From: a virus | Lineage: Duplodnaviria; Caudoviricetes | Strand: one strand, 5' to 3' | Virus record (IMG/VR): IMGVR_UViG_3300043775_000604 | Coordinates: 1 to 61,529 of that record | DNA: 61,529 nucleotides | Shown: piece after piece, positions 2,477 through 40,873 of the stretch | Position numbering within the stretch: the stretch's first letter is position 1 | Layout of the letters: each line of letters opens with the position of its first letter | Notes under the pieces: generated by a model | What the model was told of the DNA's origin: nothing | Database searches by the model: none | What the model saw: only the letters and a program-made list of their open reading frames with translations | Translations under genes and position numbers: made by a program

Positions 2477-4039
2477 ATGACGAATGAAATCGTAAAGAAT
2501 CTTAGCTTTGGAGAAGAAGCTAGGAAGAATGTTTTTGCCGGTATAACAAAGTTAACCAAAGCAGTTAGTTCGACATTAGGAGCCGGTGGTAAATGCGTTA
2601 TGCTAGAAGATGGACAAGGTAGACCAATCATTACAAAAGATGGTGTAACTGTTGCTGATAGTATTATTTTATTGGATCCTGTAGAAAACATGGGGGCAAG
2701 ACTATTAAAAGAAGCAGCTAGAAAAACGGTTAAGGAAGCGGGTGATGGCACAACTACTGCTACATTATTAGCTTACTCGATTTTAAAAGAAGCATACGCA
2801 ATACAAAATACAATAAGTCAAAGAGACTTAAAAACAGGTATCGAAGACACTGTTGAAAGAGTTATAGAATATCTTGAATCTATTAAAGTGCCAGTTACAG
2901 GGGATATGATAGATCACATTGCAACTATCTCTACAAACAATGATCCTGTGCTTGGTAAAATTATTGCCGATGCATTTAGAGCTGTTGGGGAAACAGGTAT
3001 TGTTATGATGGAATCATCAGCAAATGCAGAAACAGAAATAGAAATTATTGACGGTGTTCAATATGATAAAGGTTTAGTAAATTCACATTTCATTACTAAC
3101 CCAAATAAAAGAGTTGCAGAATTAGACAATCCATTAGTATTGCTTATTGAATCACCAGTTGAAACAATTAGGCAGATACAATCGATTTTAGAATATGTTA
3201 TAAAAGCAAAAAGATCGTTGCTTATTATTGCAGACATGGAACAAACAGTTCTAGCCGCTCTAGCAATGAACAAAGTAAAAGGTAATATTAAAGTAAATGT
3301 TATAAATGCACCAACATACGGTATCAATAAAAAAGATACATTATCTGATTTAGCATTATTAACAGGAGCCACTATTATAAACGAAGATTTAGGAGATGAT
3401 ATGGATCTTATTGATCCTGAATGTTTAGGTAGTTGTTTAAAAGCAATAACAGACGATACAGAAACTATATTACAAGTAGGGGAAGTTACTGCTGAAGTTC
3501 AAGAGCTTATTGATGACTTGAAACAACAGTTAGAAGGAAACTTACCTCCAGGAGAAGTAATTAGATTAGAGAAGAGACTTGCTAGATTATCTGCTAAAGT
3601 AGCGGTAGTAAAAGTAGGCGCTGGATCTGATATTGAATTAAAAGAAAAAGCTGATAGAGTTGAAGATGCAATTTGTGCAACTAAAGCAGCCATCAAAGAA
3701 GGAATTGTTCCTGGTGGAGGAATTGCATTACTAGATGCCTCTGTAACAATATCGGGATCCAATAGTGGCGAAGGGGCTTTGCTTGATGCAATAAAAGCAC
3801 CATTTAACACGATATTATCTAATGCTGGTATTGACGTACCAAATATGACTTCTGTACGTTTAAAAGGAACCGGAATCAATGCTGTTACAGGAAAGACTGT
3901 GAATATGATTGAAGCGGGTATTATTGATCCTTTGTCGGTTACAAAAAGTGCATTAAGAAACGCAGCATCTGTAGCTATCACTATATTGTCAACTGATTGT
4001 GTAATTAATAATTTAAGAATCAATGAAGGCAATAGGTAA
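2477..4039 (+). CDS. groEL: Phage chaperonin GroEL (Cpn60)
   Basis: ITKDGVTVA, GDGTTTAT, EGIVPGGG, GIIDP motifs; lacks the GGM tail. Confidence 0.97.
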   Translation: MTNEIVKNLSFGEEARKNVFAGITKLTKAVSSTLGAGGKCVMLEDGQGRPIITKDGVTVADSIILLDPVENMGARLLKEAARKTVKEAGDGTTTATLLAYSILKEAYAIQNTISQRDLKTGIEDTVERVIEYLESIKVPVTGDMIDHIATISTNNDPVLGKIIADAFRAVGETGIVMMESSANAETEIEIIDGVQYDKGLVNSHFITNPNKRVAELDNPLVLLIESPVETIRQIQSILEYVIKAKRSLLIIADMEQTVLAALAMNKVKGNIKVNVINAPTYGINKKDTLSDLALLTGATIINEDLGDDMDLIDPECLGSCLKAITDDTETILQVGEVTAEVQELIDDLKQQLEGNLPPGEVIRLEKRLARLSAKVAVVKVGAGSDIELKEKADRVEDAICATKAAIKEGIVPGGGIALLDASVTISGSNSGEGALLDAIKAPFNTILSNAGIDVPNMTSVRLKGTGINAVTGKTVNMIEAGIIDPLSVTKSALRNAASVAITILSTDCVINNLRINEGNR

Positions 4040-4283
4040 TAATATAGTAATCTCTCCAAAGAAGGTGGGATTATCAAAAACAGAAAACGGTTTATTATTA
4101 AAAGAAAAAGATAAAGAAAACATTAGATATAAAGAAGCTATTGTTGTTTCGGTTAGTGATGATATTACCTGCTTAAAACAAGCTGATGTTATTTATTACG
4201 ATAAAGCAGCCGGGCATGGTATTGAATTTGATGGTCAAGATTATCAAGTTATCAGACTACAAGATGTTGTGATAGTTTTATGA
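4023..4283 (+). CDS. groES: Co-chaperonin GroES (Cpn10)
   Basis: 86 aa, KTENGLLL mobile-loop-like segment, C-terminal VIRLQDVVIVL; overlaps the groEL end. Confidence 0.85.
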   Translation: MKAIGNNIVISPKKVGLSKTENGLLLKEKDKENIRYKEAIVVSVSDDITCLKQADVIYYDKAAGHGIEFDGQDYQVIRLQDVVIVL

Positions 4284-26910: not shown

Positions 26911-29900
26911 ATGTTTGAATACATCGATGCCTCTGGGCAAATATATACAGAAGATCAAATCAACAAAATGGCAGCCGAGCAAAAAACCTCGGCTAATGCC
27001 ATTATAAAAGACAAAGGATTAAAAAGAAAATCTTCAATGGTTTCAGCTTCTGCAAAGCCAGCTAAAAAAACATATCCTTGGAGTGATCAAACAAAAGAAA
27101 AAAAATCAGAAGGCGATTTTCTTGGCACATTCAAAAAAGCTCAGAAGAATAAAAAAGCAAATATAAAGAAGAGCACTGAGGAAGTATCAGCATTTGTAGG
27201 TAAACAAAATGATTATTCGTTTTACCAAAAAGATCCTATACAAGACATTTTAAATCCAACTAGCGAATTTGAAAAAGCTATTGCAAATATTCCAATTAAA
27301 AAGGAATTTGAGATACTAGAAGAGAAGGAAGCAGAAGTAATGAATTATATAAAGAGCAAGCCTATTGACTATGCCTCTATTGATAAATTATATGCAGATG
27401 AGGTTAACGATTCTCAAACAATAGATTACATTAGAGAAGGTGCAAAAGGGTTCCTTAATGATGTTATATTAAGCCCAGTATCTATGGTAGGGCAAGTTTT
27501 AGGCGCTGATATAGATATGACTATATCTCCATACAAGCCATTAGAGACACAAAAAAAGAAAGCTATAGATATATTATCAAAGAAAGCTAAAAAAGGCCAG
27601 AAAATAAACGCTGCAGATGTTGATGCGTTAGCTAAGGAGATATTTTATAAAGAGCAAGTATTAATACAAGAGGGCAAAGCTGCGGAAGAATATTGGGATG
27701 ATCAACCTTTATACATCGGAGAAGTAGCTGCACAGAAAGAAAAATTAAAAATAAGAGCAGTACAAGATGTATTGGTATCTTCTGATTTAGCTAGACAACA
27801 AACTATATTAGCTAAAACATATAACAGCCAATTATCTTCATTTGAAAAGTATGCAAATCTTTTTAAAGACAAATATACTAAAGGGGAAGTTACAGAAGAA
27901 GAAATAGCTACTTACGAAACAAGAAGAGAAGATGCTAGAAAGGCTATGGATAACCTTAAAGGTATTGCAGATAATTATCCTGCTTATGTTGATAAAATAA
28001 AAACAGACGAAGAGAAATTAGAGTATTTCAAATATAATTATGATGATGTAACCGCTAATCTATCCAAGTTTATTGGTACTGGTATAAATATATTAGGTGG
28101 AGCTACAAAGTTAATTGGATCTACAATTGAATATGCTGAAGGAGACGAAAAAGGATTAGGTGGATTTTTAGGAGAAGTTGGTACTGCTAATATAGAAATG
28201 GGTAATAAAATAAAAGAAGATGCTAAGAATATATCATTTGATAATGTTAATTCTTTTGGTGACTTTGGTAAATATTTTGCTGGACTAGTTTCAGAACAAT
28301 TACCTATTTATGCAGCAATGTATTTTGGTGGGAATTATGGATTGGCCGCTGTATCAATGGGAGCTGGTGGGCAGAAGATCCAAGAAATGGAAGATGAGAT
28401 TGGTTCTGATTATGATCTTGGTACAAAGCTTTTAGCTGGGTATGGGTTTGCTCTTTCAGAGTTTATACCTGAAAAATTAGGTACACTAAGGATGTTTGAG
28501 AACATGAAGAAAACAATGTCCGCGGTCAGCAAACAGCAAAGACAGCTATTCAAAGATAGCTTTATAAAGTCTAGTCTAAAAACAGCTGGTACTATTGGTT
28601 TTGAAAGTCAAATAGAAGGAGCAACTGAAGTTGTTACCGAAGGATTAAACATGCTTTTAGACGAGCATTTATTAGGCCAGCCAGTTTCTCCAACAGATAG
28701 AGTCAAAAGATTTAAAGAGGCTTATGCTGGAGGCGCATTTATGGGAGGAGGAGCTCAATTTGCAGGTGGTGTATCAACTTTAGTGGCTAAAGAATTAAAG
28801 AACTACGCCACAGATAAAGAGTTAGCTGCTAGTAAAGCAATAATGGAACGTATTGACTTTTTGCAAAATGAATTACAAACTAACCCTAGATTATCTGGAA
28901 AAGAAAGTGAAGAAATAATAACTGAAATAAAAAAGCTCAGTAATGAAGCTGTTAAAGTTATTGAAAATTCAGAAGACAGAGTGTATGACATGTCAAAGGA
29001 AGACATGGTTGATGTTCTACTTATAAACAAACAACAACAAGATCTTAGAGACGCTTACGTTGAATTATCTCAGTCAAACTTTTCGCCAGAGATTAAGAAA
29101 GAAAAAGTAGCAGAATTAAAAAAGCAATTTGGCGAGCTAGAGAATAAAAGAGAATACTTATTAACCGGTAAGTATGCTGAAATAAATAAAATAATAGGTA
29201 ACAGAACTATTATTAATAGCGGAGCCGATAATATAAGAAAAATTGTAGCTTCATTAGGTGAAGAAAATATTGAGAATAGAATAGGTGGTCAAGGATCAAT
29301 CGCTGTATTTGAAGATATCGACTCACTTAAAAAAGCTTACAAAGAATGGTTAACAACCGAAAATAATACTATTAAAAAGAAGATTGCTGATGGCGAACTT
29401 CCTGCTAATACAAAAATAAAATCAGAAGATGAAATAACTAATGATGTAAATGAAGCTGCAAAAAACGATGGATTTGCATTGCCAAATGGTCAATCTGTTA
29501 TTAATCTTAGTGTAGCTTCAAGAACTGGAGCTATTAACGTTGCGCAGCATGAGTTTTTGCATAAAGTATTAGCTAAAGCCCTCAGTAACCCAGTAGAAAG
29601 AAAAAAAATTGTTAATGGGTTTTTAGCTACATTGACGAATAAAGAAAGAGCTGCTGTTCAAAAACGTATTGATGAAAACTATTTAAACCCTGAAACAGGT
29701 AAGATAGACGACGAGAACCTTGAAGAATATTTTACAGCGTTTATTGATGCTATTGCTTACGGAGAAATAGGTAATAGAAATCAAGTTAAAGATGTATTAA
29801 GAAGAGCTGCTCGTCCAGTATTAAAAGTATTACAGAAATTAGGATTCTCTAACGCTAAATTTAGCGAAGGAAGAGATTTCTATGACTTCTTAAAAGAATA

Positions 29901-32900
29901 TCAATCTAACGCTAGTAAGGGCAGAATAAGTAACAGAGCTAAAGCTTTATTAGATGGAGCATCTGTAGCTAGACCTATTAGATACTCAAAGTCAATTGAA
30001 GAACGCATGGACGATTTGGATGAGCAACTTAATGATGGCGAAATTGACTACGACACTTACGAGAAGAAAATGGTTGCTCTGGAAAAAGAGGAAGCTGAAA
30101 TGAAACGTAAAGAATACGAAGAAAAGAAAGCAGAAACGGGTAAGGAGCCAGAAGTTAAGAAAGCAGACAAAAAAGCTACAAAGCAAAAAGAGCCGAAATC
30201 AAAAGAGGAAATAGAGATAAGTGAAGTTGCCGCTAAAGCTAAAGCTAAGCTTGATGCTATTGGTAATGATCCAAGAGGTTACAATCCAAATAATCCAACC
30301 ATATATGATGAGTTAGCTAAAATGGTTAAAGTAAAATCGCGAAACTGGAGAACAAACAAAGGAACTGTTATAGATTTTACAAATAAAGATAAGGGCGGAT
30401 TAGACGGTTTTAGTTTAGAGGAAATGGTGAGTTATGTTAGAACATCGATGATACCATATATTGCTAAATTTGATCCCTCTAAAAATAATAGTTTATACGG
30501 ATATATAAATGCTCAGTATATAAACCGTATGCGCGGCGCATTAAAAAGCGGGGAAGTTGCTGATGTGGTATTTACTGAGGATGTTACTGAAATGACAAAA
30601 CTATCTGCGGAGGATGTTGAGCCAACAAAACCATCTTTACCGGAAAGAAAACGTTTTCAAAATATATTAGAATCTGGTGTATTCAGCCCTGATGTTATTG
30701 AAAATATACAAGCAAAAATATTACCAGTTGTAAGAACTTTAAGAGCTAATATCAACGAGAAAACATCTTTGAATAGAACTGTAGCTCCAATTATTAGTGA
30801 GATACGTGATGAGATGGGTAAGCAAGCTGACATTGATATTAAAAAAGCAATGGGTGGAAAAGAAAATCAAGAATTACAGAATTGGTTAATCACTAATAAA
30901 AAGACTATTCTTGAGAACATGACAACAACATGGCTTATGGGTAAAGACATGGGCGATAAAGTTGCTGGTGGTATGCCGTTTGCCATACAAAAAAGAGTAG
31001 ATGGCCGATGGCTTAATTACCCTGCTTGGGTTGGTAAAAAGATAGATAGAGAATCTGTAGACGTTGACTTAGCTGGTAGAACAGCTGGTCACGAGATGGC
31101 AAGAAGATTACCTGAGGTGAATAGAAATGTTGAAACAATGGAATATTTATCTTCAATTATAGATTTAGAAACGGGTAATCCAATTAGAGGTAGGAAAGAA
31201 TCTTTAGCTAAAGCATTAGCAGAGGAGGTATCATTTGATATTATATCTGATGACTTATCTTCTAACGGCCCTATTGCACAAGCATTAAATAGAAACCAAC
31301 AATTAAAAGGAGCTGTAGTTGAAGACATAATAGTTGAAGAGTTTAATAGATTAGCAGAAAGAGGAAATGTTAAATTTTCTATATCTAATACAAACATCGA
31401 CTTAAATGCAGCTGCTAGATTTATGATAGACTCTAAAGGCAATATGGATGTCATAAATGCAGCAATAAACAATAAGTCTAAAAATTACAATATAAATGAA
31501 TTCCAAAAACTATACAAGTATATAACTAAGTATGGTGTAACAGATGAGGACTTAAAGTATCTAATGGATAAATACAGTGATGTATCTAACGAAGTTGCTG
31601 GTCCTCTTATGAATGACAAAGAAGTTAAATTCTCTAAATCATTGGAGAATAATTTGAATTCATATAATAAATCCGATAAGGGTATTACATTAGTCTCTGA
31701 TTATATTGCTGAAAACAATATTAAGAGAATAGATGCGGAAACCGCTTTCGATGTCTTAAACGATCTTAATAAGTCAATTGAAGATTGGTGGAGTGTCGTT
31801 GAAAATAAAACAATAGAAGGCATGATGAGTTCTGTTGATTATGCGTTTGATGTAATCGAAGATCGTGAGAACGAAGGCGGACCTATGATGGCCGCTGTAA
31901 ACAATGCTCTTAATTTAGAGACAATTAAGTTTGCTGAGAAGCAATTAAACGATTGGATTAGTAACGACACTAAGTGGAAAGCAAGACCTAAATTTAGTAA
32001 GTCATTATCCACTCTTTCACAATTTAATGATATAAGTAAATCTGAAAAAGAATTTATTGATATTTCTGAGAAGTTTGTTAAAGATGTGATGAATAAAAGC
32101 GGGTTGAATAGAAAAGCTATACAGCTTGAGACATTAACTATAAAAGAGGATAATGAGCTATATAATTTTGATCAGGAATATCAAGAGCTATATGATAAAG
32201 ATTATGACGGCACAATAACAGAAGCTGAGAGGGCAAGGATGGAGGAAATATATAAAAGTAATGTATTAGCTAAACAGGTTAATAAGATACTTGAAATATA
32301 TACTAAAGCAAAGATTAACAGCAATAATAATGATATAGTAAATGCTGTTGAAAGTTCAATGCCTAAAAAAGCTTTAACTACTACAAAATTTAGTAGATCA
32401 GGAGGGCCTCTTTCTTCTGTTGAAGAAACCTCTAAAGCTGTAACAGGAGTCATTGACAATATAGACCTGCGTAGCTTTCCTTTTGAAGATCAATCTGCAG
32501 TACAAGCTTTTATCGATGTAGTTAATAACATAAATAAACTAGGTTATAACGTAAGTGATATAAAAACATTTAAAGACTATTTTGACTTTGTAAACCAGAA
32601 CGAGGTAATTAAAGAATATCTAGAAGCTGTAGGCGAAATCGAAGGATTAAATGATATATACAATACTCATGTAGAGAACGTATCAATATATGAAATGGAA
32701 CCGGTTGTATATGGAATAGATACAGATGCTTCAAGAAATAATACCTACATATTAGCCTCTGATGTAATAGACCCTAATTCAGGTGAAATTATTGCTAAAG
32801 CAGGAAGTAAAATAAATGAGGGTATCATTGAAGAAATAAACACTAAAGGTAAAGGATCTATAAAAGAAGTTGAAGTATTTATAGGTAAAATGGCTATGGA

Positions 32901-35448
32901 TAGTAAAATTCCTAACAAGGATTTATTAAAACTAAAAGACAGCATTGCAGATCTTTCTTTAGCGTCAAAAAGAAAAGTAGCTGAAGCAATTTCAGAGAAG
33001 TATCATAAAGCAAAGAGTAAAGGAGATACGGAAGTTGAAAACGCTAGAACATTGACAAAAAAAGAAAGGACAGAGGCTATAGCTAAACTTACGGACTCTC
33101 AGAAAGAGGACTTATTCGTAATAGATGTAGTAGAGAATGTTGTTCCTAAAGATAATGGATCTAGACCTGGTAAATCTTTAGATTATGAATTTAATGACAT
33201 GCTTGAACGTAATAAAGGTGTACCATCATACGAAAAAATATCTGATATTGTTGCGAAAAGGAAAGGGGCAAAAGTAAATAGATTTTCTTTCTATATTCCT
33301 CCTTCAGCTGATGATTTTATTGGACTGACTTCATATATGTTTGCAGGCAAAGGCAAGCAGGGAGAATTAGACCAACAGTTTTTTACGCGTTACTTAATTA
33401 TACCTTATGTAAAAGGAATAAATACACTAGATACAGTAAGACAATCTATAAAGAAATCATACAAAGAACTATTATCAAGTTTTCCTGAAATAAAATCTAA
33501 GTTAGAGAAACTTATTCCTGATAAGTCATTTACATACGATCAAGCTATTAGGGTTTATTTATGGGCAAAGAATGATATAGATATACCGGGTTTAGATAGA
33601 AAAGATAAAAATAAGCTAGTATACATAGTAAAAAATGATCCAGACTTAATTGCATTTGCTGAAGCTTTATCTATTGCTGGTAGGCAAGACGGCGGTTGGT
33701 GGAAACCGTCTACTACATGGGATAGTGAAACTATTATATCGGATCTACACAACATTACAGAAGGCGATGGTAGAAAAATGTGGCTAGAGGAGTTTATAGA
33801 AAACGCTAACACAATATTTTCTAAAGAAAACCTAAACAAAATTCAATCTATATATGGTACCAGTGTAAGAGAGGCTTTGGAAGACGCATTATATAGAATG
33901 AAAAACGGGAAAAATAGACCTGAAGGCACGGATGCGTTAACCAACAGATGGATGAATTGGATAAACGGATCCACTGCTGCGATCATGTTTTTCAATTTAC
34001 GTTCCGCTATTTTACAAACGATATCTACTACAAACTATTTGAATTGGAGTGATAACAATCCTTTAATGGCAGCAAAAGCGTTTGCAAATCAAAAACAATA
34101 TTGGGCGGATTTCGCTATGATTATTAATTCTGATAAATTAAAAGAAAGAAGATCTGGATTGAAAGCTGATGTTACGCAATCTGAAATTGCAAATGCGGCT
34201 AATAATGCAAAAGATAAAGCAAGAGGTGTTCTATCTTATCTACAGAAAATAGGGTTTACGCCTACACAAGCAGCTGATAGTTTTGCGATTGCATTAGGAG
34301 GATCTACTTTCTATAGAAATAGAGTTAATACCTATTTGAATAAAGCAGACGAAGACGGGAACTTGATATATACAGAAAAAGAAGCAGAAGATTTAGCTTG
34401 GCTTGATTTTTCAAGAGCAACTGACCAGTCAATGCAATCTGCTGATCCATTGTATGTTTCAAAACAACAAACAACTTCATTAGGGCGCCTTGTACTAGCT
34501 TTTGCTAATACTCCTATGCAATATAATAGATTAATTAAAAAAGCTTCATTAGACTTAGTTAATAGGCGTGGCGATTGGAAAACAAATATATCAAAAATAG
34601 TATATTATGGAGCCTTACAAAATATTATATTTTCAGCATTACAAGCAGCTTTATTCTTACCATTTGATGACGAGGAAGAAGATATTGCCAATATGACTAA
34701 AGAGCAGAAAAAAGAATATGAAAAGTTAAAAAAGAAAGAAGACGATAAAGCTATTAATATTTTAAATGGGATGGCTGATACATTGTTAAGAGGATCTGGT
34801 ATTACAGGTGCATTAATATCTACTATTAAAAATGTTTACATGGAATATAATAAGCAAGAACAAAGGGAGATGTTTGCGGACCATGCTTATACTATATTAG
34901 CTGCTGCGGGTATATCTCCACCTATAAGTTCCAAGGCTAGAAAATTATACGGAGCGCATCGTACAAAAAAATTCGATAAAGATGTAATAGCTGAACGCGG
35001 ATGGGAAATAACAAAAGACGGTAAGCTTAATCTTAGTCCTAATTATCAAATAGTCGGTAATATAGCTGTAGCAACTACAAATATTCCTCTAGATAGGGTT
35101 GTTGAAAAAGTAAATAATGTATCTGAAGCATTAGATTCTCGTAATACAAAACTACAAAGAACAGCATTAATGCTTGGATGGAAAGCGTGGGAATTGAATG
35201 TTAAAAACGAAGAAAGCGAAGCAATCAAAGCAAAAGCTAAAGAAGTAAGAAATAAAGAAGGGGTAGAAAAAGCTATAGAAACTAGAGAAAGAAAGACAGA
35301 TTCAATAAAGCAAATGATAAAAGAAATGCCTAGTGCTGAAAGAAGTGCTTACCTTAGAAAGCAAAAGCTAGAAAGAAGAGAGAAGACTATTGAAAAAAGA
35401 AAGAAAGCTATAGCTAAAAAGAATAAAAGAAGAATGGGCGGTGATTAA
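26911..35448 (+). CDS. Giant (2845 aa) internal virion polyvalent protein with zincin protease, sigma-region-2-like and RpoB/RpoC-insert-like modules
   Basis: Last gene of the ejection cluster; HEFLH at aa 880 plus downstream EE; repeated [KR][FY]S[KRI]S; see findings. Confidence 0.75.
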   Translation: MFEYIDASGQIYTEDQINKMAAEQKTSANAIIKDKGLKRKSSMVSASAKPAKKTYPWSDQTKEKKSEGDFLGTFKKAQKNKKANIKKSTEEVSAFVGKQNDYSFYQKDPIQDILNPTSEFEKAIANIPIKKEFEILEEKEAEVMNYIKSKPIDYASIDKLYADEVNDSQTIDYIREGAKGFLNDVILSPVSMVGQVLGADIDMTISPYKPLETQKKKAIDILSKKAKKGQKINAADVDALAKEIFYKEQVLIQEGKAAEEYWDDQPLYIGEVAAQKEKLKIRAVQDVLVSSDLARQQTILAKTYNSQLSSFEKYANLFKDKYTKGEVTEEEIATYETRREDARKAMDNLKGIADNYPAYVDKIKTDEEKLEYFKYNYDDVTANLSKFIGTGINILGGATKLIGSTIEYAEGDEKGLGGFLGEVGTANIEMGNKIKEDAKNISFDNVNSFGDFGKYFAGLVSEQLPIYAAMYFGGNYGLAAVSMGAGGQKIQEMEDEIGSDYDLGTKLLAGYGFALSEFIPEKLGTLRMFENMKKTMSAVSKQQRQLFKDSFIKSSLKTAGTIGFESQIEGATEVVTEGLNMLLDEHLLGQPVSPTDRVKRFKEAYAGGAFMGGGAQFAGGVSTLVAKELKNYATDKELAASKAIMERIDFLQNELQTNPRLSGKESEEIITEIKKLSNEAVKVIENSEDRVYDMSKEDMVDVLLINKQQQDLRDAYVELSQSNFSPEIKKEKVAELKKQFGELENKREYLLTGKYAEINKIIGNRTIINSGADNIRKIVASLGEENIENRIGGQGSIAVFEDIDSLKKAYKEWLTTENNTIKKKIADGELPANTKIKSEDEITNDVNEAAKNDGFALPNGQSVINLSVASRTGAINVAQHEFLHKVLAKALSNPVERKKIVNGFLATLTNKERAAVQKRIDENYLNPETGKIDDENLEEYFTAFIDAIAYGEIGNRNQVKDVLRRAARPVLKVLQKLGFSNAKFSEGRDFYDFLKEYQSNASKGRISNRAKALLDGASVARPIRYSKSIEERMDDLDEQLNDGEIDYDTYEKKMVALEKEEAEMKRKEYEEKKAETGKEPEVKKADKKATKQKEPKSKEEIEISEVAAKAKAKLDAIGNDPRGYNPNNPTIYDELAKMVKVKSRNWRTNKGTVIDFTNKDKGGLDGFSLEEMVSYVRTSMIPYIAKFDPSKNNSLYGYINAQYINRMRGALKSGEVADVVFTEDVTEMTKLSAEDVEPTKPSLPERKRFQNILESGVFSPDVIENIQAKILPVVRTLRANINEKTSLNRTVAPIISEIRDEMGKQADIDIKKAMGGKENQELQNWLITNKKTILENMTTTWLMGKDMGDKVAGGMPFAIQKRVDGRWLNYPAWVGKKIDRESVDVDLAGRTAGHEMARRLPEVNRNVETMEYLSSIIDLETGNPIRGRKESLAKALAEEVSFDIISDDLSSNGPIAQALNRNQQLKGAVVEDIIVEEFNRLAERGNVKFSISNTNIDLNAAARFMIDSKGNMDVINAAINNKSKNYNINEFQKLYKYITKYGVTDEDLKYLMDKYSDVSNEVAGPLMNDKEVKFSKSLENNLNSYNKSDKGITLVSDYIAENNIKRIDAETAFDVLNDLNKSIEDWWSVVENKTIEGMMSSVDYAFDVIEDRENEGGPMMAAVNNALNLETIKFAEKQLNDWISNDTKWKARPKFSKSLSTLSQFNDISKSEKEFIDISEKFVKDVMNKSGLNRKAIQLETLTIKEDNELYNFDQEYQELYDKDYDGTITEAERARMEEIYKSNVLAKQVNKILEIYTKAKINSNNNDIVNAVESSMPKKALTTTKFSRSGGPLSSVEETSKAVTGVIDNIDLRSFPFEDQSAVQAFIDVVNNINKLGYNVSDIKTFKDYFDFVNQNEVIKEYLEAVGEIEGLNDIYNTHVENVSIYEMEPVVYGIDTDASRNNTYILASDVIDPNSGEIIAKAGSKINEGIIEEINTKGKGSIKEVEVFIGKMAMDSKIPNKDLLKLKDSIADLSLASKRKVAEAISEKYHKAKSKGDTEVENARTLTKKERTEAIAKLTDSQKEDLFVIDVVENVVPKDNGSRPGKSLDYEFNDMLERNKGVPSYEKISDIVAKRKGAKVNRFSFYIPPSADDFIGLTSYMFAGKGKQGELDQQFFTRYLIIPYVKGINTLDTVRQSIKKSYKELLSSFPEIKSKLEKLIPDKSFTYDQAIRVYLWAKNDIDIPGLDRKDKNKLVYIVKNDPDLIAFAEALSIAGRQDGGWWKPSTTWDSETIISDLHNITEGDGRKMWLEEFIENANTIFSKENLNKIQSIYGTSVREALEDALYRMKNGKNRPEGTDALTNRWMNWINGSTAAIMFFNLRSAILQTISTTNYLNWSDNNPLMAAKAFANQKQYWADFAMIINSDKLKERRSGLKADVTQSEIANAANNAKDKARGVLSYLQKIGFTPTQAADSFAIALGGSTFYRNRVNTYLNKADEDGNLIYTEKEAEDLAWLDFSRATDQSMQSADPLYVSKQQTTSLGRLVLAFANTPMQYNRLIKKASLDLVNRRGDWKTNISKIVYYGALQNIIFSALQAALFLPFDDEEEDIANMTKEQKKEYEKLKKKEDDKAINILNGMADTLLRGSGITGALISTIKNVYMEYNKQEQREMFADHAYTILAAAGISPPISSKARKLYGAHRTKKFDKDVIAERGWEITKDGKLNLSPNYQIVGNIAVATTNIPLDRVVEKVNNVSEALDSRNTKLQRTALMLGWKAWELNVKNEESEAIKAKAKEVRNKEGVEKAIETRERKTDSIKQMIKEMPSAERSAYLRKQKLERREKTIEKRKKAIAKKNKRRMGGD

Positions 35449-35813: not shown

Positions 35814-37682
35814 CTATACAATCTCACAGTTACCTCCTCCACAAGCTGCTGAATCAACAAAGTTAGTATTGTCTTGAACTTCAATTACTTTTGATAGATC
35901 AACATTCTTTAATGTAGACATCATCTCCTCGTAAACTTCTTTGGTACAATCTTCAAATGGAGTTTGTTTGTATGTTCCGCCATTATATGGTAAAACAGAT
36001 AATCCATTATAGTACTCTTTATTTGCCCACATCCATTCACCAATGATTTTCCATTCATCATCTCTGACAGAAACAGTGCAAGATACGTTATGAGTATTGT
36101 TGCCTTTATCGTGACCTGTCTTAACCCAATCCTTAGATATAAGTTTTACTCTTTCTAATAGATCTAATGTAGACTCATGTCGTGTTATAGCTCCGTCTGG
36201 AGCCTTCTGAGGAACAGAAATGACTGACTGTAATGTTGGATTAAAATATTCATCTTCTAACAGTTCTGGATGATTTATTGCAAGATATGAATATATTGCT
36301 TCATTCTTACCTAGTCTCATTCTTCGAATATAATAATCATTATGCCAAGCATGTATACCAGAAGAAGTACCAAGCACAAGACTAGTAGTACCTGCTGGCT
36401 TAACTGCTGTAGTTCTAGCAGCTTTATTAATATTAAGAGCAGCAGAAATAATACTATTTGTTTCTTTAACAACTTTAGACGCCTCTTCATAATTTAATTC
36501 TAAGTTAGATTTTGATGCAATACCGGTCATTGACACTCCAAGCAATGCATCTTTTTCTGTATTCTTTCTCCATATATCACGTAAGTAATGGAAGTCTGAA
36601 TACGATGCCTGTAATGTTCCTAAGAACGATGCAGCTGATGCTCTAGCGTTGAAATCTTCTTGATTCTCAATATCAGCCATATTAATTTCCGTTAAATTAC
36701 AGAATTGATAGGGTCTTAACGCAATTTCGCAACAAGGATTAGTTCCCCAATCTTTATCATTAGTAAGATAAATACCAGGTTCACCAGATCCAGACGCTTC
36801 AATACGTTCCCATACTTTGTCGAAGGTTTTCTTGTCAATCTTATGGCGTAATAAAACTACAGAGTTATTAGCTCTACCTCTTTGTGGATTCTCTTCCCAC
36901 CAATTTCCAGCTTTACAATTCAACATTGCGGTACTATCAAGATCAAATAATGAAATCATCGCAGCTCTACGAATTCCCCCAGCTAAAACAGCATCGGCAA
37001 TATGACACTGAATATCGTGACACTCAATATCTGTTAATTTAGATCTATCTTCTTTCTCTCTTAAGATAGCTTCAACCTTCACTAAAGCTAATCTCAATGG
37101 CTCTGGACCTGGTGCTTTTCCGCCTGCTGTAACAAGCAATGCTCCTTTGTGGCGAATATCTGAAAGATCAAATTCAATATGTGAGGTAAGCTCACCTGTA
37201 TAAGATTTAAACAATGTTTTAATTGCATCTGCCCATCCAATTATACTGTCTTGAACAACGTATCTTTTCTTACGATCATAATTAGGTTTTCTTATTTCCG
37301 GTAATTTATCAATGTTGTGATTTTGTACCGAATATCCAACGCCAGTTCCTCCAAGTAATAAAAACATAGTCTCGGAGAAGCTACGAATATTATCAATAGG
37401 TAGAAAAGCGCAGTTATAAATACGAGCATTATTAAGCTCAATAGCTTTACCACCAAACTGTAAGCTTCGCATCGATGGTAAAACTTTTTTAGTGAACACA
37501 AAATCTTTGTATATCTGCTCAATTTGTTCTTTCATTTGCGGAAATTTGGCTTTGTGCATATCCATATTCCTGGTTACTAATTCTTCCCACGTTTCTCTTC
37601 GTTCTTTTGATGGAATATACTTTGCATACTTGGTGTATACGGTTATATCTGACAAGATCTGCTTATCTAAACTAAGACTCAT
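35814..37682 (-). CDS. nrdJ: Class II (adenosylcobalamin-dependent) ribonucleotide reductase
   Basis: LPSMRSLQFGG, NCAF, GGIRRAAMI, TNPCCEI, VKPAGT, C-terminal CGGGNC; no nrdB/nrdG in the genome. Confidence 0.85.
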   Translation of the reverse strand: MSLSLDKQILSDITVYTKYAKYIPSKERRETWEELVTRNMDMHKAKFPQMKEQIEQIYKDFVFTKKVLPSMRSLQFGGKAIELNNARIYNCAFLPIDNIRSFSETMFLLLGGTGVGYSVQNHNIDKLPEIRKPNYDRKKRYVVQDSIIGWADAIKTLFKSYTGELTSHIEFDLSDIRHKGALLVTAGGKAPGPEPLRLALVKVEAILREKEDRSKLTDIECHDIQCHIADAVLAGGIRRAAMISLFDLDSTAMLNCKAGNWWEENPQRGRANNSVVLLRHKIDKKTFDKVWERIEASGSGEPGIYLTNDKDWGTNPCCEIALRPYQFCNLTEINMADIENQEDFNARASAASFLGTLQASYSDFHYLRDIWRKNTEKDALLGVSMTGIASKSNLELNYEEASKVVKETNSIISAALNINKAARTTAVKPAGTTSLVLGTSSGIHAWHNDYYIRRMRLGKNEAIYSYLAINHPELLEDEYFNPTLQSVISVPQKAPDGAITRHESTLDLLERVKLISKDWVKTGHDKGNNTHNVSCTVSVRDDEWKIIGEWMWANKEYYNGLSVLPYNGGTYKQTPFEDCTKEVYEEMMSTLKNVDLSKVIEVQDNTNFVDSAACGGGNCEIV

Positions 37683-37849: not shown

Positions 37850-38296
37850 CTATTTTTTGTTTTGGTTAGCTAATATTAATTCTATTGTTTTAAGGCACTC
37901 CGGTTGATTTTGTGGTTTGTATAAAGTTCTTCTGTCATCATTGTCCATCATCCACTTTTTAAACATCTTCCAACGCAAGGGAAACGAGTCATTAGCTCTT
38001 CCCTTAGTTTCGATTATGAATGTTTCGCTAATAAAGTCAGGAGTGTATTTAAGATTTAATACCTTTTTTAATCCTCTATCAATAAAATCTCCTTTTCCGT
38101 TTGATTGTCTTTCTATTGATGAGTTTTCAAATGTAAAAGAGGGTAACAATTCAAACGTTACCCCCTCATATTTAAAATCTATATTAGCATCTTTCAAAGC
38201 TTTATACATATACTTCTCAAGACCTGACTTAAACGTAATACCATCATATATTATTTTCTTTGACACTACTGGCCCTTTCTTTCTACTCTTTGCCAT
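37850..38296 (-). CDS. T7 endonuclease I-like Holliday junction resolvase (PD-(D/E)xK)
   Basis: FKSGLE...YEG...YTPDF...IIETKG. Confidence 0.75.
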   Translation of the reverse strand: MAKSRKKGPVVSKKIIYDGITFKSGLEKYMYKALKDANIDFKYEGVTFELLPSFTFENSSIERQSNGKGDFIDRGLKKVLNLKYTPDFISETFIIETKGRANDSFPLRWKMFKKWMMDNDDRRTLYKPQNQPECLKTIELILANQNKK

Positions 38297-38726
38297 TCAT
38301 ACAACAGTTAGTACAACAATGACTCCATTCAATATCGTCATCTATAGTAAAAGAATATGTATCACCTCTGCGCACTTTATAAGCTTCTTTTTTCTTTTTT
38401 TTCTTTTTCTTTTTTGGTTCAGCAAGAATTTCAAATCCTTTAAACGGAGAGACAAATTCTGGATCTTCAACTTCAATAAAATTTGCCTTAGAACGTTCAA
38501 TCCATAAATCTTCTAATACATCTTCAATCTCAATCTTTAATCTTTGGATATATAATGTAGCATCCATCAATTCTTCTTGAACATGATTAAGCCAAACTTT
38601 AATATCAGACTTGTCATCAATCATTGTTTTGCCATATTTAGCAAAGCCTACATCAGATCTTGATACAAACTTATTTACTACTTGTTGTACAACTGGGTCT
38701 CTAAATTCAATTTCTTGTTTCTTCAT
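38283..38726 (-). CDS. All-alpha nucleotide pyrophosphatase-like protein (MazG-related)
   Basis: GFAKYG...WLNHVQEELMDATLY (EExxD); poly-Lys tail. Confidence 0.45.
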   Translation of the reverse strand: MKKQEIEFRDPVVQQVVNKFVSRSDVGFAKYGKTMIDDKSDIKVWLNHVQEELMDATLYIQRLKIEIEDVLEDLWIERSKANFIEVEDPEFVSPFKGFEILAEPKKKKKKKKKEAYKVRRGDTYSFTIDDDIEWSHCCTNCCMNGKE

Positions 38727-38727
38727 A

Positions 38728-39549
38728 TTATAAAGTTGATTTTACAAAAGTTCCATTCTCCATTTTACCTTTTCTATTCTTAATTACATCATAAGCTGAT
38801 GTAACACAATCTTCAATTTTTAATCCTTCTAATGCAGCCAGATTAGTTAATACAACAACTGCATCACCAATAGCATCAATCAATTCAGCTCTATCATTTT
38901 TTAATATGGCTCTAGCAAGTTCTCCTGTTTCTTCTTGAAGTTTAATAAACTGAGTTTTAGCATCTCCAGATCTATATATACCTTTATTATCAGCCCATTG
39001 TCTAATTAGATCATATACATTTGGAACTTCTTTATTAACTTCTTCAGGGTAATTTTTATATTCCAATGTTGTTGATTTTTTACCTCTAGACATTTGAAAT
39101 TCGTTTAAAGCTTTATTGTACACATAAGATCTTGAAATATTGAACATTGATGTTTTAGCATTATCAATAATCCATCTGGCTAATTCTTCATCTACAATAT
39201 ATTTGCCAAATGATGTTTCAATTTTTAATCCTAAGTTGTCCATTAAATTACCTTTTAATTTGTTAACAGGACAAGGAAATGTTGTCGTCTGTTCAGTTAC
39301 ATTTAATACCATAGTGTTTTTCTTTTGTTTAGTTTTATTTATTATTAAATCTTTATATGAATCACGATCTACTTTATAGCCATGCCTTAACTGTAATTCA
39401 GCTTCTCTTTTGGAGACATAGTTTATATTATCACTGCATTCAAGCACCTCGTATTCTCCAGGCAAATAGCCTTGTTCTATTGTAACTCTCTTATTAAGAT
39501 TACGCGTTACGCCAATCTTTTTACCAAAAACATGATAGATAAAATACAT
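38728..39549 (-). CDS. MazG-like NTP pyrophosphohydrolase with GIY-YIG-like N-terminal domain
   Basis: C-terminal KLQEETGELA...DAIGDAVVVL; N-terminal YFIYH..KKIGVTRNLNKRV. Confidence 0.75.
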   Translation of the reverse strand: MYFIYHVFGKKIGVTRNLNKRVTIEQGYLPGEYEVLECSDNINYVSKREAELQLRHGYKVDRDSYKDLIINKTKQKKNTMVLNVTEQTTTFPCPVNKLKGNLMDNLGLKIETSFGKYIVDEELARWIIDNAKTSMFNISRSYVYNKALNEFQMSRGKKSTTLEYKNYPEEVNKEVPNVYDLIRQWADNKGIYRSGDAKTQFIKLQEETGELARAILKNDRAELIDAIGDAVVVLTNLAALEGLKIEDCVTSAYDVIKNRKGKMENGTFVKSTL

Positions 39550-39557
39550 AATTTAGA

Positions 39558-40343
39558 TTAAATGGCCACTTTTGCCGTAATTACTGGACCGTGTTTATAA
39601 TTTATTAAGGATAATGCTCCGTTTTCATAAATATAGTTGGGAGATTCAAAAGTCTCTTGCCCGAAATATTCACGTATAGCATCATGTTGGTTGTTATATA
39701 TGTGAGCATCCACAATCTGTATATCAATATAGTTTGCTTTGAGGTTTGTTTTTTCAGCCACATATAAAAGTATTTTAGAAAACAACGCAACATCATAAGG
39801 TATACCTAAGAATAGATCTCCAGATCTTTGTACTACAAACATATTAAGATAGTCTTTTTCAACAAAGAATTGGAAATACAAATAGCACGGAGGCAAGCGC
39901 ATTTGATCTAGCTGACAAGGATTCCACAAGCTTATAATATGTCTACGGCTATCTGGATTGGCTATTAATTGTTCAATAAGCGTTTGCATTTGATCAATAT
40001 TTTGATCGTTAAAATTGCGCATTTGATGTCCGTATACTGGCCCAAGATCTCCATTCTCATCTGCCCAAGCATCCCATATTTTTACGCCCGCATCTCTGAA
40101 TCTTTGTATATTAGTTTCGCCATTCATAAACCATTCGAACTCTGTATCAAATGTTTTTTGAAACATTTTTCTACCTGTTATTAATGGGAATTGTTTGTGA
40201 ATATTAATTCTTAAACTAGCATTGAATATAGACTTACAACCAACGCCAGTACGATCGTCTCTATCTACTCCTTGAGCAAGTGCTTTCCATAATAATGATT
40301 TGTATTGATCCTCGTATGTATGTGACTTAAAATAGTTGTTCAT
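39558..40343 (-). CDS. thyA: Thymidylate synthase family protein (Asp at the dUMP/dCMP specificity site)
   Basis: DRTGVG, IWDAWAD, LGPVYG, PDSRRHI, LPPC, QRSGDLFLGIPYD, DAHIY. Confidence 0.9.
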   Translation of the reverse strand: MNNYFKSHTYEDQYKSLLWKALAQGVDRDDRTGVGCKSIFNASLRINIHKQFPLITGRKMFQKTFDTEFEWFMNGETNIQRFRDAGVKIWDAWADENGDLGPVYGHQMRNFNDQNIDQMQTLIEQLIANPDSRRHIISLWNPCQLDQMRLPPCYLYFQFFVEKDYLNMFVVQRSGDLFLGIPYDVALFSKILLYVAEKTNLKANYIDIQIVDAHIYNNQHDAIREYFGQETFESPNYIYENGALSLINYKHGPVITAKVAI

Positions 40344-40677
40344 TTATTATTTGTTTTGGTTTTTGTTTAGCTGGTTCTTCTTTTATATATTTCTTTGGTT
40401 GAACTTCTTTTATAACTTTTACGCCACTGTGCTTATCATAGTAATACGTATAAAACTTATAAATTTCTTTCCATATTTCAATCTTCTCATAAGCTAATGG
40501 GCTTTGTGTAACTTTACCGTTTAAAGTAATACATATATACCATTCAGTCGTACTCTTAGCTTTAGGAGCAATAAATATATTATTATGTATGCACCAAGCG
40601 TAAGCCGCTTGCTCTCTGTCTTTGGCTACATAATTACCCATATCTATTGCTTTGCTTTTCTTAGATCCACTACCCAT
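40327..40677 (-). CDS. Hypothetical protein
   Basis: ORF in operon context; probable start MGSGSKK. Confidence 0.6.
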   Translation of the reverse strand: MGSGSKKSKAIDMGNYVAKDREQAAYAWCIHNNIFIAPKAKSTTEWYICITLNGKVTQSPLAYEKIEIWKEIYKFYTYYYDKHSGVKVIKEVQPKKYIKEEPAKQKPKQIINEQLF

Positions 40678-40873
40678 TATCAATTAATTTTAATCCATAA
40701 TGTTTGTCTTTTATTCTTATGGTAAAACATGAATACTCAGGAATTTTTATAAACATGGTATCTATTGAATTATGCCCTATGTCCTCATATTCTTCCCCGT
40801 ATATTAAAAATTTTGGATATGGAGGTGTTTCTATTAGTTCATATTCTTTACCTTTAAATATTAATTTATCCAT
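40670..40873 (-). CDS. Hypothetical protein
   Basis: 67 aa, overlaps next gene start. Confidence 0.55.
   Translation of the reverse strand: MDKLIFKGKEYELIETPPYPKFLIYGEEYEDIGHNSIDTMFIKIPEYSCFTIRIKDKHYGLKLIDNG

What the first reader, a model, noticed from the sequence alone, without database searches (positions are those of the whole stretch)
39558..40343. ThyA homologue with Asp at the specificity site: possible dCMP methylase and 5-methylcytosine DNA pathway
Seen: QRSGDLFLGIPYD (Asp codon 39792-39794) where thymidylate synthases have QRSxDxxLGxPFN, and PCY in place of PCH, with the catalytic Cys kept. Known: Asn177 of E. coli ThyA selects dUMP, N177D shifts the enzyme toward dCMP, and T4 dCMP hydroxymethylase has Asp here. 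The next two genes are MazG-type pyrophosphatases that could remove dCTP. Inference: the phage may make 5-methyl- or hydroxymethyl-dCMP to modify its DNA against restriction, using host kinase and polymerase since none is encoded, or may reach dTMP through m5dCMP.
Basis: partly seen in the sequence, partly recalled or inferred. Interest (0 to 1): 0.78.

Follow-up and report, generated by a model that had tools for sequence, protein, structure and literature searches.

The report
Phage dCMP methylase for 5-methylcytosine DNA
This lake-water phage's only "thymidylate synthase" has the active-site marks of an enzyme that methylates dCMP, and it travels with one pyrophosphatase gene as a swappable two-gene kit that most likely fills the phage DNA with 5-methylcytosine to escape host restriction enzymes, a trick already known from other phages.

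Summary
The core observation holds. ORF 39558-40343 (minus strand, 261 aa) is a full ThyA-family protein with Asp at E. coli position 177 and Tyr at 147, and the catalytic Cys is kept. All 120 close relatives listed share these residues, and both Asp codons occur among relatives.

Published signatures predict a folate-dependent dCMP 5-methyltransferase. It is not a hydroxymethylase, because it has Leu rather than Asp/Glu three residues before the Cys, no Ser-x-Tyr, and keeps Trp83 and the C-terminal tail. It is not a 5-hydroxy-dCMP synthase, because Asp169 is kept.

Only one neighbour is a MazG enzyme: 38728-39549, a three-domain fusion. The second gene (38283-38726) has no MazG support.

Across 221 related viral loci:
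- The synthase and the long MazG occur together (200 of 205 loci) and are absent together (0 of 7).
- The same slot holds two methylase-like types or a T4 gp42-like hydroxymethylase type.
- Relatives lacking the kit have purged G/C-containing 4-bp palindromes (6 of 7 loci). Carriers have not (3 of 198).

This indirectly supports modified cytosine in virion DNA. No phage kinase, polymerase, deaminase or DHFR was found.

The kind of system is already known (phage Xp12, MetaGPA viromes), and this scan has noted it before on other DNA. Nothing here is biochemically shown.

The parts
39558..40343 (-). ThyA-family gene, predicted dCMP C5-methyltransferase (5-methyl-dCMP synthase), 'type A' of this phage family
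   Evidence: Pfam PF00303 E 2.8e-74. 39% identical to E. coli ThyA, 24% to the Xp12 enzyme and 24% to T4 gp42. Residues by E. coli numbering: R21, E58, W80, W83, Y94, R126, R127, L143, C146, Y147, R166, D169, Y176, D177, H207, Y209. The C-terminus ...ITAKVAI is like E. coli ...IKAPVAI.
39792..39794 (-). Asp codon (GAT) at the position of E. coli Asn177, the pyrimidine-specificity residue
   Evidence: Asp in 120 of 120 close relatives. GAT 43 and GAC 9 among 52 unique type A genes.
39882..39896 (-). Leu-Pro-Pro-Cys-Tyr: Leu143 (39894-39896), catalytic Cys146 (39885-39887), Tyr in place of His147 (39882-39884)
   Evidence: sequence; motif xLPPCY in 52 of 52 type A genes. Leu three residues before the Cys is the thymidylate-synthase state. 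Hydroxymethylases have Asp/Glu there (PMC6400193 passages; PMC13326640 section 24).
38728..39549 (-). Three-domain MazG fusion ('MazG1', 273 aa), cassette partner of the synthase and candidate dCTP pyrophosphatase. N-terminal T5orf172/MUG113-like domain (about 39355-39549), conserved middle domain of unknown fold, C-terminal MazG domain (about 38740-39027)
   Evidence: Pfam MazG E 2.4e-7 and PRA-PH E 1.9e-5. PHROG MazG-like families. Model pLDDT 88. Top 14 VIA-align hits are all MazG/PRA-PH-type pyrophosphatases, Z 9.8-7.5. Acidic residues E206, E207, E210, D225, D229 are invariant in 27 orthologues. T5orf172 hit in 9 of 27 and MUG113 in 10 of 27 orthologues, weakly. Present in 200 of 205 loci with an Asp177 synthase and 0 of 7 without.
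38283..38726 (-). Gene of unknown function ('g2', 147 aa). Not part of the cassette and not a demonstrable MazG
   Evidence: No Pfam, NCBIfam or PDB match. hhalign against the MazG domain gave probability 0.9%. It is retained in relatives that lack both the synthase and MazG1 (L108, L116, L117).

Best explanation
The gene encodes a folate-dependent deoxycytidylate C5-methyltransferase. It is a ThyA-derived enzyme that uses the normal thymidylate-synthase chemistry (Cys146 attack at C6, methylene transfer from methylene-tetrahydrofolate, hydride transfer giving dihydrofolate), but on dCMP instead of dUMP, because Asp replaces Asn177.

It works as a two-gene cassette with the adjacent MazG fusion. 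That partner most likely hydrolyses dCTP to dCMP, which both feeds the methylase and keeps plain dCTP out of replication. 5-methyl-dCMP is then phosphorylated by host kinases and built into phage DNA by the host polymerase. The virion DNA then carries 5-methylcytosine in place of much or all of its cytosine and resists cytosine-sensitive restriction enzymes.

Shown here: the residues, their conservation, the cassette's joint presence and absence, and the restriction-site contrast. Inferred: substrate, product, dCTPase specificity, use of host kinase and polymerase, and the extent of replacement.
For: (1) Active site. Asp at 177 and Tyr at 147, with every other dUMP/folate-site residue checked kept.

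(2) Literature (passages read):
- N177D switches thymidylate synthase to dCMP, and positions 177 and 147 are the top two discriminators between cytosine-modified and unmodified virome contigs (PMC8670742).
- In vivo, the Xp12 enzyme and 5 of 7 metagenomic Asp177 homologues made 5mdC (bioRxiv 10.1101/2024.12.05.627091).

(3) Product rules:
- Leu three residues before the Cys and P-V-Y instead of S-x-Y. Trp83 and the C-terminal tail I-x-A-x-V-A-I are kept, which seal the site for hydride transfer (PMC6400193).
- Asp169 is kept, so it is not a 5-hydroxy-dCMP synthase (PMC13326640 section 28).

(4) Selection. Asp in 120 of 120 relatives, with both Asp codons in use.

(5) Cassette, among 221 unique related loci:
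- The long MazG accompanies an Asp177 synthase in 200 of 205. The 5 misses are loci that end within 1.8 kb after the primase-helicase gene.
- It is absent in 0 of 7 loci without such a synthase.
- The same slot holds T4 gp42-like genes with the full hydroxymethylase signature (D-T-P-C, S-N-Y-G, no tail) in 101 loci.
- So the slot's job is cytosine C5 modification, not dTMP supply.

(6) Restriction-site test (G/C-containing 4-bp palindromes with at least 8 expected and observed/expected 0.1 or less, loci of 10 kb or more):
- Carriers: 3 of 198 loci.
- Non-carriers: 6 of 7 loci. The seventh has CGCG 0 and GGCC 0 at 7.9 expected.
- Fisher p = 6e-9, not corrected for relatedness.
- The window itself: CCGG 55 observed / 47 expected, CGCG 27/47, GGCC 37/47, GATC 208/189.

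(7) PRA-PH/MazG domains co-occur with thymidylate-synthase domains on modified contigs (PMC8670742).
Against: - No biochemical or DNA-chemistry datum exists for this protein or phage.
- No phage dNMP kinase, DNA polymerase, DHFR or deaminase was found. Xp12 has DHFR and a deaminase beside its enzyme, and the published in vivo assays co-expressed T4 dNMP kinase. Entry of 5mdCMP into the dNTP pool therefore rests on unknown host kinases.
- 2 of 7 Asp177 homologues tested in the preprint did not give 5mdC, so the rule is not perfect.
- Xp12's proven methylase has Asn or Lys, not Leu, three residues before the Cys in my alignments. 'Leu means methyl' is thus only the absence of the hydroxymethylase mark.
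- Tyr147 is untested biochemically.
- The protein still passes NCBIfam's thymidylate-synthase model TIGR03284 (206.7 bits against a cut-off of 108.35).
- The restriction-site contrast rests on about five independent cassette-less lineages. Different hosts or another linked anti-restriction gene could explain it.
- MazG specificity cannot be read from sequence. The MazG fusion shows no sequence likeness to T4 dCTPase gp56. Elemovirus phages and locus L121 carry short MazG genes without an Asp177 synthase.
Confidence: 0.6

Rival explanations
1. The enzyme makes 5-methyl-dCMP (or keeps some dUMP activity) only as a route to dTMP. A host dCMP or dCTP deaminase converts the methylated nucleotide to thymidylate, shifting the pool towards T for a 33% G+C genome, and the virion DNA carries ordinary cytosine.
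For: Xp12-type phages make dTTP by deaminating 5mdCTP (discussion passage of bioRxiv 10.1101/2024.12.05.627091). No phage kinase for 5mdCMP was found. The genome is AT-rich (33.3% G+C).
Against: No deaminase is encoded. A normal Asn177 ThyA would give dTMP more directly, yet Asp is kept in 120 of 120 relatives. The same slot is filled in 101 related loci by gp42-like hydroxymethylases, which cannot lead to dTMP. Cassette carriers lack restriction-site purging (3 of 198) while non-carriers show it (6 of 7).
Confidence: 0.15
2. The product is another C5 group, such as 5-hydroxymethyl-dCMP, or a methyl group that is later elaborated on the DNA.
For: Asp177 alone does not fix the product. Tyr147 is uncharacterised. 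2 of 7 Asp177 homologues did not yield 5mdC in vivo.
Against: The hydroxymethylase signature is absent: Leu rather than Asp/Glu three residues before the Cys, P-V-Y rather than S-x-Y, and Trp83 and the C-terminal tail present. Asp169 is not Asn. No glycosyl-, carbamoyl- or other transferase and no TET-like gene was found in the window. True gp42-like genes exist in sister phages and look quite different (24-30% identity).
Confidence: 0.12
3. It is an ordinary thymidylate synthase, and the Asp and Tyr substitutions are tolerated variants without a change of substrate.
For: 45-50% identity to bacterial ThyA and a pass on NCBIfam TIGR03284. Public sources name relatives 'thymidylate synthase'.
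Against: Mutagenesis literature as quoted in PMC8670742 shows N177D changes specificity. Positions 177 and 147 separate modified from unmodified contigs. Among 150 representatives, 105 have His/Asn and 40 have Asp with His, Tyr or Pro. This is a discrete class, not scatter. The protein falls below the cut-offs of the seven other NCBIfam thymidylate-synthase equivalog models that it hits; for the best of them it scores 255.6 against 327.
Confidence: 0.03

Closest known systems
Deoxycytidylate 5-methyltransferase (ThyA homologue) of Xanthomonas phage Xp12 and relatives (PaMx74, AXL1 group), whose DNA has 5mC in place of C
   Same: ThyA-family fold, catalytic Cys, Asp at 177 with Tyr at 176 ('PYD'), Asp169 and non-His at 147. 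The predicted reaction is the same. A nucleotide-pool partner gene sits beside it.
   Different: Only 24% identical. The Xp12 enzyme has Pro147, Phe83 and no ThyA-like C-terminal tail. Xp12's cassette has DHFR, a dCMP-deaminase-family gene and a HAD hydrolase, and the phage has its own replication enzymes. Here the partner is a MazG fusion, and no DHFR, deaminase, kinase or polymerase was found.
Asp177 thymidylate-synthase homologues of cytosine-modified virome contigs (MetaGPA: eLife 2021, PMC8670742; bioRxiv 10.1101/2024.12.05.627091)
   Same: The same diagnostic positions (177 and 147). PRA-PH/MazG domains co-occur. ThyA-like enzymes from uncultured phages, of which 5 of 7 tested made 5mdC.
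   Different: The tested enzymes were chosen for a linked deaminase, and this phage has none.
E. coli ThyA N177D and L. casei TS N229D engineered dCMP methylases (Hardy & Nalivaika 1992; Liu & Santi 1992, as cited in PMC8670742; original papers not read)
   Same: An otherwise canonical ThyA scaffold with the single specificity switch. The query is 39% identical to E. coli ThyA, with the rest of the site kept.
   Different: This is a natural enzyme with further co-varying changes (His147 to Tyr, Phe176 to Tyr, Glu82 to Ala) conserved in the clade.
T4 dCMP hydroxymethylase gp42 with dCTPase gp56
   Same: The same logic: a pyrophosphatase makes dCMP and removes dCTP, and a ThyA homologue with Asp at the specificity site modifies C5. 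Sister phages of this family carry gp42-like genes in the same slot.
   Different: The query lacks the hydroxymethylase signature and keeps the C-terminal tail. MazG1 shows no sequence similarity to gp56. No dNMP kinase or glucosyltransferase was found.

Membership tests
Thymidylate synthase / dCMP hydroxymethylase superfamily (Pfam PF00303) | Full-length profile match above the curated cut-off | tested here: met
   250.1 bits against a cut-off of 24.3; profile positions 2-265 of 266.
Thymidylate synthase / dCMP hydroxymethylase superfamily (Pfam PF00303) | Catalytic Cys146; phosphate-binding Arg21, Arg126, Arg127, Arg166; Glu58, Tyr94, His207, Tyr209 | tested here: met
   All are present in alignments with E. 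coli ThyA.
Canonical thymidylate synthase ThyA (dUMP to dTMP) | Asn at position 177 (reads the uracil O4/N3) | tested here: not met
   Asp, codon GAT at 39792-39794.
Canonical thymidylate synthase ThyA (dUMP to dTMP) | His147 in the water network to O4 | tested here: not met
   Tyr.
Canonical thymidylate synthase ThyA (dUMP to dTMP) | Score above NCBIfam equivalog cut-offs | tested here: inconclusive
   Below cut-off for NF002497 (255.6 against 327) and six other models, but above it for TIGR03284 (206.7 against 108.35).
dCMP C5-methyltransferase (5-methyl-dCMP synthase, Xp12 type and MetaGPA type) | Asp at 177 with the catalytic Cys kept | tested here: met
dCMP C5-methyltransferase (5-methyl-dCMP synthase, Xp12 type and MetaGPA type) | No acidic residue three positions before the Cys, and Asp169 kept (folate-dependent reductive methylation) | tested here: met
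   L-P-P-C; QRSGD. Rules taken.
dCMP C5-methyltransferase (5-methyl-dCMP synthase, Xp12 type and MetaGPA type) | Product is 5-methyl-dCMP with dihydrofolate released | not testable with these tools
   Needs an enzyme assay or in vivo LC-MS.
dCMP C5-methyltransferase (5-methyl-dCMP synthase, Xp12 type and MetaGPA type) | Xp12-type cassette partners (deaminase-family gene, DHFR) | tested here: not met
   None in the window. Xp12 layout.
dCMP hydroxymethylase (T4 gp42 type) | Asp/Glu three residues before the catalytic Cys | tested here: not met
   Leu. Signature from PMC6400193.
dCMP hydroxymethylase (T4 gp42 type) | Ser/Thr two residues before the catalytic Tyr; no C-terminal tail; Trp83 replaced | tested here: not met
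   G-P-V-Y-G; tail ...AKVAI present; Trp83 kept.
5-hydroxy-dCMP synthase (RB69 gp48 type) | Asn in place of Asp169 | tested here: not met
   Asp169 kept. Rule from PMC13326640 section 28.
MazG / all-alpha NTP pyrophosphatase (for neighbour 38728-39549) | Profile match, fold and acidic metal-binding motifs | tested here: met
   PF03819 31.4 bits against a cut-off of 22. Z 9.8, rmsd 3.2, 81 residues aligned to 1vmg. E206, E207, E210, D225, D229 invariant.
MazG / all-alpha NTP pyrophosphatase (for neighbour 38728-39549) | dCTP-specific hydrolysis (dCTPase role) | not testable with these tools
   DCTPP1 and RS21-C6 are among the fold hits but rank no higher than other MazG proteins.
MazG (for second neighbour 38283-38726) | Any profile, sequence or fold match to MazG | tested here: inconclusive
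   No match. The model was too poor to search (pLDDT 58).

The most novel reading that the evidence does not exclude
A minimal, swappable two-gene cytosine-modification cassette suffices to rewrite the cytosines of a 60-kb phage using only host kinases and the host replisome. It consists of an Asp177 ThyA homologue plus a T5orf172(GIY-YIG-like)-MazG fusion.

In this widespread aquatic phage family the synthase module has been exchanged at least about 26 times between two methylase-like types and a gp42-like hydroxymethylase type, or lost altogether. The likely driver is an arms race between ordinary restriction enzymes and modification-dependent ones.

The GIY-YIG-like N-terminal domain of the MazG fusion might play the part of T4 endonuclease II, nicking unmodified DNA to feed the pathway.
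Probability: 0.3. Interest if true: 0.7.

Novelty: new member of a known kind. Interest (0 to 1): 0.45.

Why it matters
If the prediction holds, a large and abundant family of uncultured freshwater and marine phages carries fully or largely C5-modified cytosine, though every database calls the gene 'thymidylate synthase'. The family has hundreds of contigs of about 60-67 kb in public viromes.

That would bias restriction-, bisulfite- and nanopore-based virome work. It would also mislabel a defence-evasion gene as a metabolic helper.

The family offers a natural experiment. Near-isogenic backbones carry a methylase-type cassette, a hydroxymethylase-type cassette or none, and the restriction-site avoidance tracks the cassette. 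It would also show that no phage kinase or polymerase is needed for such replacement.

The enzyme is a ThyA-like natural dCMP methylase, and so a convenient scaffold for making 5-methyl-dCMP.

Tried and rejected
- **Close phage relatives.** A search of the phage collection with the protein gave only matches under 60% identity, so no close cultured relative was seen. A nucleotide search found only about 600 bases at 89% to Flavobacterium Elemovirus phages.
- **Second neighbour gene (38283-38726) as MazG.** Pfam, NCBIfam and PHROGs, PDB sequence and profile searches, hhalign, ESM Atlas (best score 0.85, unnamed clusters) and an AlphaFold model (pLDDT 58, not searched) all failed to show MazG. 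I dropped the claim.
- **MazG1 against T4 dCTPase gp56.** No similarity by BLASTP.
- **N-terminal and middle domains of MazG1.** Foldseek against the PDB gave no hit at E of 0.001 or better for the whole model. The wide structural search was filled by the MazG domain, so these two domains remain structurally untested.
- **Sequencing runs.** All 24 listed runs are kept as contigs without library detail. They cannot show base modification. I used them only to check the Asp codon.
- **Base-change counts.** C>T and T>C are about equal, so there is no methylcytosine decay signal.
- **TCGA.** It is the one G/C-containing palindrome that is often low in type A loci (20 of 53). From memory, TaqI-type enzymes ignore 5mC, which would fit. 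But TCGA is low by base composition in all groups, so I do not count it as evidence.
- **Vsr-like gene.** One sits beside the synthase in a single locus (L052). That is too isolated to use.
- **Earlier notes on this genome.** None exist.
- **Technical.** timed out and was rerun faster. One search failed on a wrong coordinate and was resent without it. One search stopped with an error after printing types A to C.
Full report
**What is there.** The window is 61,529 bases at 33.3% G+C and carries about 86 ORFs. It looks like a whole tailed-phage genome.
- It encodes a large terminase, portal, virion proteins, GroEL/GroES and a 2,845-aa ORF on the plus strand.
- A replication and nucleotide block lies on the minus strand.
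- Only about 600 bases match cultured phages, at 89% to Flavobacterium Elemovirus phages. Those phages share the gene order.
- Public runs holding the DNA are lake, freshwater, aquatic and estuary metagenomes.

The finding is ORF 39558-40343 on the minus strand, 261 aa.

**Check of the observation.**
- The ORF matches Pfam Thymidylat_synt end to end (E 2.8e-74) and solved bacterial ThyA structures (E 1e-60 to 1e-54).
- In those alignments, and in an alignment with E. coli ThyA taken from NC_000913, Asp (GAT, 39792-39794) sits at Asn177 and Tyr (39882-39884) at His147. The catalytic Cys146 is kept (39885-39887).
- R21, E58, W80, W83, Y94, R126, R127, L143, R166, D169, H207 and Y209 are all kept.
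- All 120 of the closest 120 database relatives listed (77-97% identity) have Asp and PCY.
- Among 52 unique genes of this type, the Asp codon is GAT 43 times and GAC 9 times. The residue is therefore held by selection.
- Contigs from two other runs cover the codon without any difference.
- The claim of two MazG genes is only half right, as set out below.

**What the residues predict.** I read passages of four papers.
- The MetaGPA study reports that N177D turns a thymidylate synthase into a dCMP enzyme. It also reports that positions 177 and 147 best separate cytosine-modified from unmodified virome contigs, and that PRA-PH/MazG domains co-occur with the synthase on modified contigs (PMC8670742).
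- A preprint reports that the Xp12 enzyme and 5 of 7 metagenomic Asp177 homologues gave 5mdC in E. coli when co-expressed with T4 dNMP kinase (10.1101/2024.12.05.627091).
- The T4 gp42 structure paper defines the hydroxymethylase signature as Asp/Glu three residues before the Cys, plus Ser/Thr two residues before the catalytic Tyr. It notes the missing C-terminal tail and the replacement of Trp83 (PMC6400193).
- A 2026 paper gives D169N as the mark of 5-hydroxy-dCMP synthases and L143D/E as the mark of hydroxymethylation (PMC13326640 sections 24 and 28).

The query has L-P-P-C, G-P-V-Y-G, Trp83, Asp169 and a tail ...ITAKVAI that matches E. coli ...IKAPVAI. By these rules it is a dCMP methylase that keeps reductive thymidylate-synthase chemistry.

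It is 39% identical to E. coli ThyA but only 24% to the Xp12 enzyme and to gp42, so it is a separate, ThyA-like lineage. Among 150 representatives of the wider family, 105 are His/Asn and 40 carry Asp with His (17), Tyr (13), Pro (8) or a gap (2) at 147. On a quick tree, the Tyr/Asp and many His/Asp forms cluster around the query.

**Neighbours.**
- Gene 38728-39549 (273 aa) has a C-terminal MazG domain. Support: Pfam E 2.4e-7; profile against PDB 1vmg, E 6.8e-8; model pLDDT 88; the top 14 structural hits are all MazG/PRA-PH-type enzymes, Z 9.8-7.5.
- Its acidic motif residues are invariant.
- Its N-terminal 65 residues give weak but repeated hits to T5orf172 (9 of 27 orthologues) and MUG113 (10 of 27). 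From memory, both belong to the GIY-YIG superfamily.
- A conserved middle domain is unassigned.
- Gene 38283-38726 gave no MazG signal in any test.
- No DNA polymerase, dNMP kinase, deaminase, DHFR, ThyX, DNA methyltransferase or glycosyltransferase was found. I scanned 57 ORFs with Pfam and 71 with PHROGs.

**Family-wide evidence.** I fetched 250 loci from the viral contig collection, using the synthase and three primase-helicase queries. After removing overlaps, 221 loci were unique.

The gene order is conserved: primase-helicase, small ORF, synthase, MazG fusion, g2, DUF1064, ribonucleotide reductase.

The synthase slot holds three very different genes, all with Asp177:
- **Type A** (the query's type): 52 loci.
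- **Type B:** L-P-P-C-H, P-Y-D, Trp83 replaced by Asp/Asn. 52 loci.
- **Type C:** 212-274 aa, D-T-P-C-T, S-N-Y-G, C-N-D, no tail. This is the full gp42 signature. 101 loci.

One locus has a canonical Asn177 ThyA elsewhere plus a short 104-aa MazG.

The long MazG fusion is present in 200 of 205 loci with an Asp177 synthase. The five exceptions end within 1.8 kb after the primase-helicase gene. It is present in none of 6 cassette-less loci, nor in the Elemovirus locus. g2 stays in place in the cassette-less loci.

On a primase-helicase tree of 197 leaves, the slot's state changes at least 26 times, against a mean of 84 for shuffled labels. The synthase and the MazG fusion are therefore a mobile two-gene unit. 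Its common denominator is C5 modification of dCMP, not dTMP synthesis.

**Restriction-site test.** For each unique locus of 10 kb or more, I counted the G/C-containing 4-bp palindromes with at least 8 expected from base composition and observed/expected of 0.1 or less.
- Carriers of an Asp177 synthase: 3 of 198 loci have any such site (A 1 of 45, B 0 of 52, C 2 of 101).
- Loci without one: 6 of 7. Examples:
  - Elemovirus: CATG 0/118, CCGG 0/25, CGCG 0/25, GGCC 0/25.
  - L115: CCGG 0/18, GATC 3/66.
  - L209: CCGG 0/20, CGCG 0/20.
  - L108: CGCG 0/13, GGCC 0/13.
  - The Asn177 locus: CGCG 0/17.
- The seventh (L138) has CGCG 0 and GGCC 0 at 7.9 expected.
- Fisher p = 6e-9. This ignores relatedness, and there are only about five independent cassette-less lineages.
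- The window itself shows no purge.

This is what one expects if carriers' DNA is shielded at cytosines. It does not say which modification is present. Host differences or a linked anti-restriction gene are not excluded.

**Mechanism proposed.**
1. MazG1 hydrolyses dCTP to dCMP (inferred).
2. The synthase methylates dCMP with methylene-tetrahydrofolate, releasing dihydrofolate that host DHFR recycles (inferred from the residues).
3. Host kinases and the host polymerase put 5-methyl-dCTP into phage DNA (inferred; this is the weakest step).
4. The DNA resists restriction (indirectly supported).

**Rivals and standing.** The rivals are a pure dTMP route, another C5 product, and an ordinary ThyA. 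I rate them at 0.15, 0.12 and 0.03.

The kind of system is known from Xp12 and the MetaGPA work. Earlier notes of this scan describe the same switch in other phages, so I class this as a new member of a known kind.

My literature searches found no paper linking Flavobacterium-type phages to this cassette. Those searches cover only the held library.

Noticed in passing
window 38728-39549 (-): The MazG gene is a three-domain fusion. It has an N-terminal T5orf172/MUG113-like domain (weak hits in 9-10 of 27 orthologues), a well-conserved middle domain (about residues 80-155) with no family or fold assigned, and a C-terminal MazG domain. Relatives without an Asp177 synthase have no such long form.
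   Followed up: partly
loci L059-L132 and others (type C), e.g. L060 11898-12605: Sister phages with primase-helicase 66-84% identical to the window's carry, in the same slot, a short T4 gp42-like gene with the full hydroxymethylase signature (D-T-P-C, S-N-Y-G). A third 'type B' synthase has Trp83 replaced by Asp/Asn. The slot's state changes at least 26 times on the primase-helicase tree.
   Followed up: partly
L002 (Flavobacterium phage elemoD, NC_055855 3784-44381), L108, L115, L116, L209, L199: Relatives without the cassette have completely or almost completely lost some 4-bp palindromes: CATG, CCGG, CGCG, GGCC and/or GATC. This is a strong restriction-avoidance signature that differs between lineages.
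   Followed up: yes
type A loci generally; window TCGA 87 observed / 189 expected: TCGA is the only G/C-containing 4-bp palindrome that is often strongly low in type A loci (20 of 53 at observed/expected 0.25 or less). It is also low by base composition in the other groups, so the cause is unclear.
   Followed up: partly
L052 7813-8265 (+): A Vsr-like T:G mismatch endonuclease gene (Pfam Vsr E 1e-31) lies directly upstream of the Asp177 synthase in one distant relative. It is found in this one locus only.
   Followed up: partly
window 35814-37682 (-) and relatives: The ribonucleotide reductase is a B12-type (class II-like) single gene here. In many relatives it is replaced at the same place by a class I pair (about 322 + 573 aa). 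This is another swappable nucleotide-metabolism module.
   Followed up: no
e.g. L034 5894-6469; between the reductase and the 71-aa ORF in relatives: A 187-191-aa ORF with a weak DUF6445 match occurs in 13 type A loci, 12 type C loci and the Elemovirus locus, but is absent from the window. Its presence does not follow the synthase type.
   Followed up: partly
window 26911-35448 (+) and 2477-4283 (+): A 2,845-aa ORF has no Pfam or PHROG match (the Elemovirus counterpart is annotated as a structural protein). The phage also encodes its own GroEL and GroES.
   Followed up: no
window 40327-40683 (-): A 118-aa ORF of unknown function overlaps the start of the synthase gene by 17 bases. It is kept in relatives that lack the cassette, so it is not part of it.
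   Followed up: partly
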